Source: the human T2T-CHM13v2.0 reference genome, Homo sapiens. Taken from it: a DNA stretch of 64,000 nucleotides. This document shows positions 134-3,354 of the stretch, piece by piece. The notes beneath the pieces are model-generated. The model made no database searches. It was not told the DNA's origin and saw nothing but the letters and a program-made list of their open reading frames with translations. Numbering within the stretch: position 1 is the first letter of the stretch; each line of letters begins with the position of its first letter. The DNA is taken from the NCBI RefSeq assembly GCF_009914755.1, contig NC_060928.1; one strand, given 5' to 3'. The translations under genes were made by a program, and so were the position numbers.

Positions 134-350
134 CTAACATTTATTGAGCACTTACTGTCTTCCAGGCACTGTTCTCCATGCTTCATAGATAGAAACAAGG
201 TCCTCCTTGTTTAAGGCATTATTCCATTTTGCAGATGAGGAAACTGACACAGAGAGGATTCTGGTGACTTGCCCAAGGTCACAGGTGATTAACCATGTGG
301 CCAAGAGTCAAACCCACTAGTTTGCCTTCAAAGTCCAAGATCTAACTATG
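134..350 (-). mobile_element. MIR SINE
   Basis: aacatttattgagcacttact ... attttgcagatgaggaaactgacacagagag ... gacttgcccaaggtcacag is the reverse complement of the MIR core; ends approximate. Confidence 0.8.
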
Positions 351-383
351 ACATCAAGACACTGTCCCTTCAGTGCCCTCCCT
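288..383 (+). repeat. Left copy of 96-bp direct repeat flanking the LTR5
   Basis: attaaccatgtggcc...cagtgccctccct; 95/96 identical to 1361-1456. Confidence 0.97.
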
Positions 384-385
384 AA

Positions 386-1360
386 TGTGGGGAAAAGAAA
401 GAGAGATCAGATTGTTACTGTGTCTGTGTAGAAAGAAGTAGACATAGGAGACTCCATTTTGTTCTGTACTAAGAGAAATTCTTCACCTTGAGATGCTGTT
501 AATCTATAACCTTACCCCCAACCCCGTGCTCTCTGAAACATGTGCTGTGTCCACTCACGGTTAAATGGATTAAGGGCTGTGCAAGATGTGCTTTGTTAAA
601 CAGATGCTTGAAGGCAGCATGCTCGTTAAGAGTCATCACCACTCCCTAATCTCAACTACCCAGGGACACAAACATTGCGGAAGGCCGGAAGGCCGCAGGG
701 ACCTCTGCCTAGGAAAGCCAGGTATTGTCCAAGGTTTCTCCCCATGTGATAGTCTGAAATATGGCCTCGTGGGAAGGGAAAGACCTGACTGTCCCCCAGC
801 CCGACACCCGTAAAGGGTCTGTGCTGAGGAGCATTAGTATAAGAGGAAGGCATGCCTCTTGCAGTTGAGACAAGAGGAAGGCATCTGTCTCCTGCCCGTC
901 CCTGGGCAATGGAATGTCTCGGTATAAAACCCGATTGTATGTTCCATCTACTGAGATAGGGGAAAACCGCCTTAGGGCTGGAGGTGGGACATGCGGGCAA
1001 CAATGCTGCTCTGTAAGGCATTGAGATGTTTATGGGTATGCATATCTAAAGCACAGCACTTAATTCTTTACCTTGTCTATGATGCAGAAACCTTTGTTCA
1101 CGTGTTTATCTGCTGACCTTCTCTCCACTATTATCCTGTGACCCTGCCACATCCCCCTCTCTGAGAAACACCCAAGAATGATCAATAAATACTAAGGGAA
1201 CTCAGAGGCCAGGATGGATCCTCCGTACGCTGAACGCTGGTCCCCTGGGCCCCCTTATTTCTTTCTCTATACTTTGTCTCTGTGTCTTTTTCTTTTCCAA
1301 GTCTCTCGTTCCACCTAACGAGAAACACCCACAGGTGTGGAGGGGCAACCCACCCCTTCA
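386..1360 (+). mobile_element. HERV-K(HML-2) solo LTR (LTR5 family, LTR5_Hs/LTR5B-like), 975 bp
   Basis: Starts TGTGGGGAAAAGAAAGAGAGATCAGATTGTTACTGTGTC and ends GGGGCAACCCACCCCTTCA; TATAAAA near 923, AATAAA near 1184; short internal tandem duplication (cggaaggc) near 678-694. Confidence 0.97.
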
Positions 1361-1456
1361 ATTAACCATGCGGCCAAGAGTCAAACCCACTAGTTTGCCT
1401 TCAAAGTCCAAGATCTAACTATGACATCAAGACACTGTCCCTTCAGTGCCCTCCCT
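1361..1456 (+). repeat. Right copy of 96-bp direct repeat flanking the LTR5
   Basis: attaaccatgcggcc...cagtgccctccct directly after the LTR terminal CA. Confidence 0.97.
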
Positions 1457-3354
1457 CTCAGGCTCTAGTACGAGCCACTGGGGCCTCAGCAATCCAGGAC
1501 ATGCTTATATGCTTATTTCTTCTCCAAGTGTGTGTTGTTCTCTTTGCCGCTGGAGATATATCTTACTCTGCCTTATATTCTACTTATTTACTCACTAATC
1601 TCATTTCAAACATCCCCCTCTCCACCTCACCCCGAATCCAAAGTAGAAGGGCATGGCCTCAAGTCTAGGGACCACACCGTTTGAGGCTGGACACATGTGC
1701 GACTCTGGAACCTGTCTTTCTAATAAGCTTACCAAGTAATCCTGATGGAAATCTTCACCCTAAGTCACCACCTCGACAACTAGGCGTCTCAGAGATGAAA
1801 GCCAGGGCAGAGGGAGACTCTTACCTACCCCTTGGGAGATGGAGAAAGACACAAGAATCCTAAAAGCAGCTGTGGCTCCAGCATCTGGGAAGGGAATGGG
1901 ACAGAAAGTGCCTCCAAGATGGACTCTGTCCTACTCTTCTTTCAATCCCCAGACCTTAACACTGGGCATGGCACGTAGTCGGTGTTTAGTAAGTGCCTGC
2001 TGAGCAGCTTGTTTCACTCATGGCACCATCCCTGGCAGGGAAAGAAATAGCAGCAGAGTCACCAATGCATGTAACCTGCCTGCAGCAAGAAGTGCCCCAG
2101 ACAGGAGGCTGCAAAGCTTTAGAGCAGGGCCTTCAGCCTAATCCAGGTAGGTGGGTGGAAACCAAACACAGCCTGCTCCAGAGCTACAGGGCAAGTGCTG
2201 GCGTAGAAGCCAAAATATGTTATTTCCTTGTGCGGTTTCATGAGACTAGGCAAATCAGCACAGAACCTGGAAGGATCCCAAGTGTACCACTCTTCCTCTC
2301 TGTATTAAGTGTCCTGGAGCAAGAGCAAGCTGCTGTCACTTTGTGAGCTAGATACATACTTACTAACTTTCAAGATAAGTACAGGGTGCTCCTGAAACAC
2401 ATACTGTAAGAAAGGGAAGGGGGATGATGAAGAAGGTGACATACTTTGCAAGAGGCCAGAGGACCCACTACCAATATTCCAAGTCAAAGAAAGCTTTGGA
2501 CAACAGATGGGATTTCTTGAGCTATTTGAACAAAGATGTTAATTCATATCTAATCCCTCCATTGCCTCATCTTCTAAGTCCTGTCCCACTCCAATTACTC
2601 CTGCACAAAGCTACCAATACAAGGGCCCCAAATTCTTCCTTTGTCAAATCATGGGCTGCTCAGATCCCAAGTGGCTGCCAGTACTAACCTCAGGCCCACG
2701 CTTCAGGTTACGCCCTCCGTCACATCCACAATAGACACCTTGACCCTGGTGTTTCCAAAGGGCTCCCTTCAAACATCTACTGCAAGCACAACACACCACA
2801 TGTACACTTTATCTTGGTTTTTTTTTGCTAAAGGACAGGCAGAGAGCTAAGCCTCCAGCACAGCAGCTGGAAGGATTAAAGGCTCAGATGCTGAGAAGGC
2901 CCACTTTCTGGTAATTCCACCAAACCTCAGCCCAGGACAGAGAGAAACTGCCAAGGGAAGAACTATGAACAAACAGGCTCTCCAACTCCCTCAGTGACAA
3001 AGCAGGGGAAGGGAAATTCCCAGTGAAGTGAAACATAACTGCTCACCGCAGCAAAGATGGGAGACAATGACTTGAGATAGACAGCAACTGCAGTTGCACT
3101 TCCAGATTTCTTTACATCTTGCTCCAAAATGTAGGTCCCTCTGAAGTTTTAAAGTACATTTTAAGAAAGTATTAATATCTCACTAACTATGAAATACTAG
3201 AAACTGATTAAAGTCAAGTCAAAGAGGAAGAGTTTTTTATCTCGGGTTTAATAGGTTGTGCCAAAAACAGAAGCTCTGAGTATTTACCAGCTAAACCCCA
3301 CTAGGTCCGAGAGCCACTGAGAGTAGCATCTGTCTCGGGATAAAATGGGGTGTT

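What the first reader, a model, noticed from the sequence alone, without database searches (positions are those of the whole stretch)
288..1456. HERV-K solo LTR with a 96-bp target duplication and a retained AA at the U3 end: fossil of an aberrant, one-ended integration
Seen: 288-383 and 1361-1456 match at 95/96 nt (one TG/CG difference). The right junction is clean (CA|attaacc), while the left junction has two extra bases (AA, 384-385) that are not in the duplicated target. Established: HML-2 integrase normally makes 5-6 bp TSDs and trims 2 nt from each viral end. As I recall, the HML-2 polypurine tract ends ...GGGGGAAA directly before the LTR TG. Long duplications arise experimentally when only one viral end is joined by integrase, and rare long-TSD HML-2 LTRs have been reported, so the class is not new. 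Inference: the U5 end was integrase-joined and the unprocessed U3 end (AA-TG) was joined by host repair synthesis. The 96-bp repeats could also allow precise excision by recombination, restoring an apparently empty allele.
Basis: partly seen in the sequence, partly recalled or inferred. Interest (0 to 1): 0.8.

Follow-up and report, generated by a model that had tools for sequence, protein, structure and literature searches.

The report
Known HERV-K LTR with 96-bp duplication
A HERV-K solo LTR in the PROM1 gene is flanked by a 96-base duplication and two leftover viral bases, which fits a half-failed retroviral integration, but this exact locus and its duplication are already published.

Summary
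Window 288-383 and 1361-1456 match at 95/96 and occur nowhere else in the genome. They flank a 975-bp HML-2 LTR5_Hs (386-1360, TG...CA), with AA at 384-385.

This is not the normal pattern. All 29 closest LTR copies have 5-6 bp duplications directly abutting TG...CA: 27 exact, 2 with one mismatch.

AA is the dinucleotide that precedes the 3' LTR in 28 of 29 HML-2 proviruses, as ...GGGGGAAA|TG. The U5 side lacks the viral TC. Of 25 LTR starts preceded by non-A+AA, only this one has the AA outside a short duplication, polypurine tract or tandem repeat.

Best reading, about 0.6: integrase joined the U5 end and host repair joined the full-length U3 end after about 96 nt of synthesis. Experimental aberrant HIV integrations look like this.

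The locus is not new. Kahyo 2017 lists it with the 96-bp repeat and the "two nucleotides", crediting Mamedov 2004. Macfarlane and Badge 2015 already tie long HML-2 repeats to aberrant integration. Only the reading of the AA appears to be new. The ortholog test could not be run. Interest is low.

The parts
288..383 (+). Left copy of the 96-bp duplicated host target (has TG at repeat positions 10-11)
   Evidence: D1, reference copy; this 96-mer occurs only here and at 1361-1456 in the whole genome. The same 96-nt sequence is printed in Kahyo 2017 Table S4.
384..385 (+). AA between the left repeat and the LTR. It is read as the terminal dinucleotide of the U3 end of unintegrated HML-2 linear DNA.
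   Evidence: sequence; 28 of 29 proviral polypurine tract/3' LTR junctions read GGGGGAAA|TG; 0 of 29 related solo LTRs carry extra bases. [quoted passage not shown]
386..1360 (+). HERV-K(HML-2) LTR5_Hs solo LTR, 975 bp, TG...CA, U3-R-U5 on the + strand
   Evidence: full-length alignment at 93.5-95.7% identity to 29 other copies. Subramanian 2011 supplement lists HML2.LTR233, hg19 chr4:16078280-16079255, LTR5_Hs, 975 bp, estimated age 9.26 My (7.3-11.22).
1359..1367 (+). Clean U5 junction, CA|ATTAACC. The viral TC that follows CA in a provirus is absent.
   Evidence: sequence; locus L087 reads ...CCCCTACA|TC|TGGTGCCC (a single provirus).
1361..1456 (+). Right copy of the 96-bp duplicated host target (has CG at repeat positions 10-11)
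   Evidence: 99% to the left copy.

Best explanation
This is a germline fossil of a one-ended (half-site) HML-2 integration.

Integrase 3'-processed the U5 end and joined it to the top strand just before ATTAACC. The U3 end was not strand-transferred by integrase. The free host 3'-OH at the nick was extended for 96 nt, copying the target a second time. The full-length U3 end, still carrying the AA that lies between the polypurine tract and the LTR's TG, was then joined to it by host end-joining or repair. LTR-LTR recombination later reduced the provirus to a solo LTR.

Shown: the structure, the viral identity of AA, the clean U5 end, and the contrast with normal copies. Inferred: the order of events, which enzymes joined the U3 end, and that the empty site had one copy of the 96 bp.
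For: Structure:
- 96-bp direct repeat, 95/96, unique in the genome.
- In 29 of 29 closest LTR copies a 5-6 bp duplication abuts TG...CA with no extra bases: 27 exact, 2 with one mismatch. The anomaly is therefore specific to this locus.

Viral origin of AA:
- 28 of 29 proviral junctions read GGGGGAAA|TG; the other reads ATA|TG.
- The base before AA here is T, not the viral A, so exactly two viral bases are present. That is the length integrase removes.

U5 end:
- CA abuts the host directly, with no TC.

Surveys in this genome:
- 25 sites have non-A+AA before an exact LTR start. They are 20 short duplications that include the AA, 3 polypurine tract variants, 1 tandem repeat, and this locus.
- The mirror survey (LTR end + TC + non-T) found 8 sites, none with TC outside a short duplication; 1 was unresolved.

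A natural mirror case:
- The 21q21.1 provirus has a clean 5' LTR junction, a 3' LTR truncated at position 256, and a 450/450 identical duplication in the same topology.

Experimental precedent:
- Varadarajan 2016 (passages and supplement read) reports aberrant proviruses with one normal end. [quoted passage not shown]
- Its supplement includes rows such as 'Normal / 3 bp deletion / Duplication 95 bp' and '2 bp insertion / Normal'.
Against: - The empty ortholog was not examined. Kahyo 2017 gives the preintegration state of this locus as 'n.d.', and Mamedov 2004 could not be read.
- AA could be a chance filler, at about 1 in 16.
- Retained AA does not prove that 3' processing failed, because a processed end can be refilled.
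[quoted passage not shown] I see none between the viral ...ATT-3' end and the host bases after CCCTCCCT.
- In the experimental tables, long duplications also occur with both ends 'Normal'. A long duplication alone therefore does not show which end failed.
- The TC at the U5 end rests on one provirus.
Confidence: 0.6

Rival explanations
1. Integrase joined both ends, but in two uncoupled half-site reactions 96 bp apart with the usual 5' stagger. Gap repair made the 96-bp duplication. The unpaired 5'-AA flap of the plus strand was ligated in rather than removed, and became fixed after replication or mismatch repair.
For: The duplication has the same topology as a normal target duplication, only longer. 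Experimental aberrant proviruses with both LTR ends 'Normal' and duplications of 36-3700 bp exist. According to Kahyo's footnote, only this locus among the long-repeat loci has extra bases, so clean-ended long duplications occur in HML-2.
Against: Flap retention is not seen in any of the 29 normal copies, nor at any other AA-preceded LTR start. It needs an extra rare step on top of an already rare uncoupled integration.
Confidence: 0.15
2. One-ended integration is correct, but the AA is not viral. It is an untemplated filler, or a filler templated from elsewhere, added by end-joining at a U3 end that happened to be trimmed exactly to TG.
For: End-joining often adds 1-3 nt. The supplement of Varadarajan 2016 lists insertions of 1, 2, 3, 5, 10, 32 and 60 bp at aberrant ends. 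The junction 9-mer CTCCCTAAT (378-386) recurs inside the LTR at 642-650, so it could have served as a template.
Against: It needs two coincidences: trimming by exactly the integrase-like 2 nt, and a filler that matches the viral dinucleotide (about 1 in 16). A junction word of 9 nt or more recurred in 79 of 2000 random-flank controls, so that match is compatible with chance and was noticed post hoc.
Confidence: 0.07
3. Normal integration followed by a later rearrangement: a 'pseudo-TSD' made by recombination between pre-existing duplicated segments (the alternative model in Kahyo 2017), or a secondary duplication of the flank.
For: Kahyo 2017 raises this for all putative long repeats whose empty site has not been validated. 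One entry in their list, 4q32.1, turned out here to be a tandem duplication and not a target duplication.
Against: No 5-6 bp duplication abuts the LTR, with or without the AA: the flanks are CCCTAA or TCCCT on the left and ATTAAC on the right. The 96-mer has no third copy in the genome. The repeat boundaries coincide exactly with the LTR end on the right and with LTR+AA on the left, which a later independent rearrangement would have to hit by chance.
Confidence: 0.08
4. Integrase-independent capture of linear viral DNA (or an LTR-containing fragment) at a staggered chromosomal break, with host repair joining both ends.
For: The U3 end is a full-length blunt-type end.
Against: The U5 end stops exactly at CA and lacks the TC found before the primer-binding site. 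A host-joined end should be full length or randomly trimmed.
Confidence: 0.05

Closest known systems
This same locus as published: hg19 chr4:16078281-16079255, 4p15.32 (Kahyo et al. 2017, BMC Genomics 18:487, Table 2 and Table S4, crediting Mamedov, Lebedev and Sverdlov 2004, J Gen Virol 85:1485)
   Same: Same solo LTR. The same 96-nt repeat sequence is printed with N at the one variable position. Footnote d notes two nucleotides between the repeat and the LTR.
   Different: The parts of Kahyo 2017 that I read (the whole main text) do not say what the two nucleotides are or which end failed. I could not see Mamedov 2004, so it may contain this reading.
HML-2 provirus at 21q21.1 with a 450-bp flanking duplication (Kahyo 2017; Macfarlane and Badge 2015)
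   Same: Same [repeat]-element-[repeat] topology, with one clean integrase-type junction and one aberrant one.
   Different: There the U3 (5' LTR) end is clean, and the right end is a 3' LTR truncated at position 256. The repeat is 450/450 identical and the element is still a provirus.
HML-2 solo LTRs at 7p21.2 (250 bp) and 16q23.1 (61 bp) with long duplications (Mamedov 2004; Kahyo 2017)
   Same: LTR5_Hs solo LTRs flanked by long direct repeats. For 7p21.2, a single-copy empty allele was sequenced in humans.
   Different: Kahyo's table marks no extra nucleotides for them.
Experimental aberrant integrations of HIV-1 (integrase inhibitors or integrase mutants) and ASLV vectors with one bad end (Varadarajan et al. 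2016, Retrovirology 13:71; Oh et al. 2006 and 2008, and Varadarajan et al. 2013, as cited there)
   Same: One normal end and one host-joined end, with host duplications of tens to thousands of bp and occasional 1-3 bp additions at the aberrant end.
   Different: Those are cell-culture events of a lentivirus and an alpharetrovirus under drug or mutation. This is a spontaneous germline event of a betaretrovirus-like virus. The identity of the added bases is not given in the table I read.
Chimpanzee Pan2Ap HML-2 provirus with 15-18 bp direct repeats (Macfarlane and Badge 2015)
   Same: Direct repeats that are too long, attributed in print to inefficient integration, with host enzymes suggested by analogy with the RSV vector work.
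   Different: The repeat is much shorter, and the passages I read mention no retained terminal dinucleotide.

Membership tests
HERV-K(HML-2) LTR5_Hs solo LTR | Full-length sequence similarity to HML-2 LTRs | tested here: met
   Positions 1-975 align at 93.5-95.7% to 29 other copies; 2541 first-look candidates genome-wide, of which 40 were scored. Listed as LTR5_Hs HML2.LTR233.
HERV-K(HML-2) LTR5_Hs solo LTR | TG...CA termini, with no adjoining polypurine tract or primer-binding site (solo state) | tested here: met
   The LTR runs from TG at 386 to CA at 1360. The left flank is host sequence plus AA only, with T rather than the viral A before the AA. The right flank is ATTAACC, not TC+TGGTGCCC.
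HERV-K(HML-2) LTR5_Hs solo LTR | 5-6 bp target duplication abutting the LTR | tested here: not met
   None is present. A 96-bp repeat plus AA stands in its place, against 29 of 29 relatives with 5-6 bp duplications. This fails the mark of normal integration, not the identity of the LTR.
One-ended (aberrant) retroviral integration product | One junction of normal integrase type | tested here: met
   The U5 CA abuts the host directly, with no TC.
One-ended (aberrant) retroviral integration product | The other viral end is abnormal (truncated or with added bases) | tested here: met
   +2 nt (AA) at the U3 end, equal to the viral terminal dinucleotide.
One-ended (aberrant) retroviral integration product | Long duplication (or deletion or inversion) of flanking host DNA | tested here: met
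   96 bp, 95/96. The experimental range includes 36, 66, 95, 152 and 178 bp, up to kilobases.
One-ended (aberrant) retroviral integration product | The duplicated segment is single-copy in the preintegration allele | not testable with these tools
   No primate genome or human empty allele was available. Kahyo 2017 lists 'n.d.' for this locus, and Mamedov 2004 is not held.
One-ended (aberrant) retroviral integration product | Short homology at the aberrant junction ('usually, although not always') | tested here: not met
   The viral 3' ...ATT does not pair with the host bases that follow CCCTCCCT (CTCAGG). The source itself calls this feature non-obligatory.
Pseudo-TSD from pre-existing duplicated segments (Kahyo 2017 alternative model) | Further or pre-existing copies of the repeat, plus a normal short duplication next to the LTR | tested here: not met
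   Only two copies exist in the genome, and no short duplication is present. Pre-existence in outgroups was not testable.

The most novel reading that the evidence does not exclude
The AA is the preserved 5' terminus of the plus strand of HML-2 linear DNA. In this complete human genome, the two motif-limited surveys (25 U3-side and 8 U5-side candidates) found no other HML-2 LTR that keeps an unintegrated-end dinucleotide. If so, the locus is physical evidence of where the HML-2 polypurine tract primer was cut, exactly 2 nt before TG. It would also show that in this germline event integrase joined the U5 end and host repair finished the U3 end.
Probability: 0.55. Interest if true: 0.35.

Novelty: already known. 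Interest (0 to 1): 0.2.

Why it matters
Little is new. The locus, its 96-bp repeat and the two extra bases are in print, and so is the link between long HML-2 repeats and aberrant integration.

The small gain is interpretive. The two bases match the viral terminal dinucleotide, which shows which end failed and gives a natural germline counterpart to the drug- or mutant-induced aberrant integrations seen in culture.

Two side results may help curators of HML-2 catalogues. The published '206-bp TSD' at 4q32.1 is a tandem duplication, not a target duplication. The 21q21.1 provirus is a clean mirror-image case.

The LTR lies antisense within alternative 5' exons of PROM1 and under two RefSeq enhancer features, so it may matter for PROM1 regulation. 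That is a separate question and I did not test it.

Tried and rejected
- **A second 'AA plus long repeat' locus.** The pattern hit at C4:164.01 Mb (4q32.1, Kahyo's '206-bp TSD') looked like one. The sequence shows a tandem duplication of a 284-bp unit (78 bp of LTR start + 206 bp). The AA there is part of the unit and the repeat is not a target duplication. Rejected.
- **A structure-prone target.** The 96-nt target folds no better than shuffles (z = -0.89; 31 of 200 shuffles fold as well). No notable inverted repeats bracket the site.
- **Microhomology or a templated origin for the AA.** The junction 9-mer recurs in the LTR, but 79 of 2000 random-flank controls do as well. I treat it as chance.
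- **A mirror survey for retained TC at U5.** 8 sites, none outside a short duplication, 1 unresolved.
- **Papers not held.** Mamedov 2004, Varadarajan 2013 and Oh 2006.
- **Literature searches.**
  - No paper linking this LTR to PROM1 appeared among the 15 of 30 listed.
  - A search on hg19 and estimated hg38 coordinates found only Kahyo 2017 as relevant.
  - A search on interpretation of the dinucleotide found nothing in the listings.
  - Three papers that cite Mamedov 2004 (PMC8781664, PMC4612461, PMC4422153) add no detail on this locus; PMC10742618 and PMC6298018 cite only other papers by Mamedov.
  - PMC9148063 had no passage on long target duplications.
- **Not done.**
  - The 7p21.2, 16q23.1 and 6p25.2 loci were not examined.
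  - No ortholog comparison was possible.
  - PDF supplements of Kahyo 2017 (figures of the repeat alignments and models) could not be read.

Full report
**Observation**

The window reads ...GGTG [ATTAACC...CCCTCCCT] AA [TGTGGGG...CCCCTTCA] [ATTAACC...CCCTCCCT] CTCAGG....
- The repeat finder gives two 96-nt copies, 288-383 and 1361-1456, at 95/96 identity and 1073 nt apart. The one difference is TG against CG.
- The bases outside the copies do not match, so the repeat is exactly 96 nt.
- A whole-genome search with the 96-mer returns only these two places: 2 matches from 2 candidates.

**What lies between the copies**

- Positions 386-1360 (975 bp) align over their full length with HML-2 LTRs elsewhere in the genome. 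There were 2541 first-look candidates, 40 were scored, and the best foreign identity was 96%.
- For 29 other copies fetched with flanks, the alignment runs from 1-4 to 975 at 93.5-95.7%.
- All 29 are solo LTRs that begin TG (three have a mutated first or second base) and end CA.
- Of these, 27 have an exact 5-bp (10) or 6-bp (17) target duplication directly against the LTR. The other 2 have a 6-bp duplication with one mismatch. None has extra bases.
- The supplement of Subramanian et al. 2011 lists this element as HML2.LTR233, LTR5_Hs, 975 bp, with an estimated age of 9.26 My (7.3-11.22) (I saw only the passage around the hit).
- One difference in 96 bp between the two copies gives a point estimate of 4.3-5.2 My, with a 95% interval of about 0.1-29 My. 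This is compatible but uninformative.

**The AA**

I located HML-2 proviruses through the Pfam HERV-K env domain: 489 candidates, 150 scored, 30 loci kept.
- 29 of the 30 loci reach the start of the 3' LTR.
- In all 25 whose alignment starts at LTR position 1, the preceding bases are ...AAAAGGGGGAAA|TG.
- Of the other 4, read by eye, three also have AA and one has TA.
- At the locus the base before AA is T (host CCCT), not the viral A. Exactly two viral-type bases are present, which is the number integrase normally removes.
- At the other end, one provirus (L087) reads ...CCCCTACA|TC|TGGTGCCC, so a full-length U5 end would carry TC. A second provirus (L086) has a deletion there and was uninformative.
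- The locus has CA|ATTAACC, so the U5 end is cut as integrase cuts it.

**Is the AA special? Surveys in this genome**

- The 26-nt LTR-start motif, with up to 2 mismatches, occurs 1584 times, against 0 for the reversed control.
- Requiring non-A+AA before an exact 20-nt LTR start gives 25 sites. After fetching flanks (and for two loci already held), they sort as follows:
  - 20 have a 5-6 bp duplication that includes the AA (14 exact, 6 with one mismatch; three of the six are paralogous copies of one insertion).
  - 3 are polypurine tract variants.
  - 1 is a tandem repeat (4q32.1, described below).
  - 1 is this locus.
- The mirror survey (LTR end + TC + non-T) gives 8 sites: 6 exact short duplications, 1 with one mismatch, and 1 proviral 3' LTR whose other flank I did not fetch.
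- Within these motif-limited surveys, this locus is the only LTR that keeps a terminal viral dinucleotide.

**Comparators**

- **21q21.1.** The 5' LTR abuts the host cleanly (...CCAGG|TG). The 3' LTR stops at position 256 and is joined to the start of a 450-bp segment that is 450/450 identical to the segment ending at the 5' LTR. This is the mirror image of the present case: a good U3 end, a truncated right end, and the same repeat topology.
- **4q32.1.** Listed by Kahyo 2017 with a '206-bp TSD'. It is a head-to-tail duplication of a 284-bp unit made of the first 78 bp of an LTR plus 206 bp of other sequence. It is not a target duplication.

**Mechanism**

Varadarajan et al. 2016 (I read passages of the Background, Results and Discussion, and the whole supplementary tables) describe aberrant HIV-1 proviruses.
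- One end and its junction were normal.
[quoted passage not shown] - They attribute the second junction to host polymerases and recombination, after integrase has inserted only one end.
- Their tables include 'Normal / 3 bp deletion / Duplication 95 bp', 'Normal / 1 bp insertion / Duplication 178 bp' and '2 bp insertion / Normal / Duplication 1 bp'. They also include several 'Normal / Normal' entries with duplications of 36-3700 bp.

The present structure (+2 nt at one end, a normal other end, a 96-bp duplication) falls inside that spectrum. My reading, at about 0.6:
- Integrase joined the U5 end.
- The nicked host strand was extended by 96 nt.
- The full-length U3 end was joined by host repair.
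- The provirus later collapsed to a solo LTR.

Three caveats apply:
- A processed 3' end refilled by a host polymerase gives the same sequence, so 'unprocessed' is not proven.
- There is no microhomology at the aberrant junction.
- The empty site has not been seen.

The rivals are:
- two uncoupled integrase joinings with a retained 5' flap (0.15);
- a non-viral filler that happens to be AA (0.07);
- a later rearrangement or 'pseudo-TSD' (0.08), disfavoured because no short duplication abuts the LTR and no third copy of the 96-mer exists;
- integrase-independent capture (0.05), disfavoured by the exact CA end.

The target itself is not structure-prone (z = -0.89).

**What is known already**

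- Kahyo et al. [quoted passage not shown] They print the 96-nt sequence, which is the one in this window.
- Reference [13] is Mamedov, Lebedev and Sverdlov 2004, which I could not read.
[quoted passage not shown] They do not name 4p15.32.
- Kahyo 2017 also discusses recombination between long repeats as a way to regenerate an apparently empty allele.
- In the library searched, I found no paper that identifies the two nucleotides as the viral terminal dinucleotide (listings only, except for the papers named above). Mamedov 2004 and the PDF supplements of Kahyo 2017 remain unseen and may bear on this.

**Verdict**

The finding is an already-published locus of a known class. The only apparent increment is the reading of the AA. 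Interest is low (0.2).

Noticed in passing
L063 (G000:C4:164010200-164011700, minus strand), the 4q32.1 HML-2 fragment: Kahyo 2017 lists a '206-bp TSD' here. The sequence is a tandem duplication of a 284-bp unit (first 78 bp of an LTR + 206 bp), followed by antisense-looking internal sequence. It is not a target duplication.
   Followed up: partly
L084/L085/L054 (G000:C21:16920400-16929850), the 21q21.1 provirus: The flanking duplication is 450/450 identical. The 5' LTR junction is clean, and the 3' LTR is truncated at LTR position 256 and joined to the start of the repeat. This is a mirror-image one-ended integration. The 5' LTR end runs into non-primer-binding-site sequence, which indicates an internal deletion (L086).
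   Followed up: partly
window 156-388, 156-2027, 156-2031 (minus strand) and 156-1591: According to the hub's annotation, alternative PROM1 5' exons run antisense through the LTR. One model starts at 388, three bases inside the U3 edge. All share a GT splice donor just past 156 (AC at 154-155 on the + strand). Two RefSeq enhancer features (156-873, 874-1591) cover the LTR. No paper linking this LTR to PROM1 appeared among the 15 listed of 30 hits.
   Followed up: partly
window 378-386 and 642-650: The 9-mer CTCCCTAAT spans the left junction (host CTCCCT + AA + T of the LTR) and recurs inside the LTR. The truncation point of the 21q21.1 3' LTR lies immediately before the same internal motif. 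Random-flank controls reach 9 nt or more in 79 of 2000 trials, so this is probably chance.
   Followed up: partly
L078 (G000:C13:32459359-32460535) and L081 (G000:C23:25494087-25495260): Both are HML-2 3' ends with variant polypurine tracts (GGGGGCAA and GGGGGAA before TG). Their LTRs carry an internal deletion and stop at the AATAAA-proximal site, followed by an A-rich tail. They look like polyadenylated, retrotransposed copies rather than integrated proviruses.
   Followed up: no
L069 (C3:132.80 Mb), L071 (C7:7.02 Mb), L077 (C11:67.75 Mb): Three LTRs share near-identical flanks on both sides (ATCAA|...|ATCAG). This is one insertion copied by segmental duplication to three chromosomes.
   Followed up: no
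L097 (G000:C19:54995344-54996427): An LTR5-type LTR is inserted, with a 5-bp duplication (TCAAC), into an older HML-2 LTR of opposite orientation.
   Followed up: no
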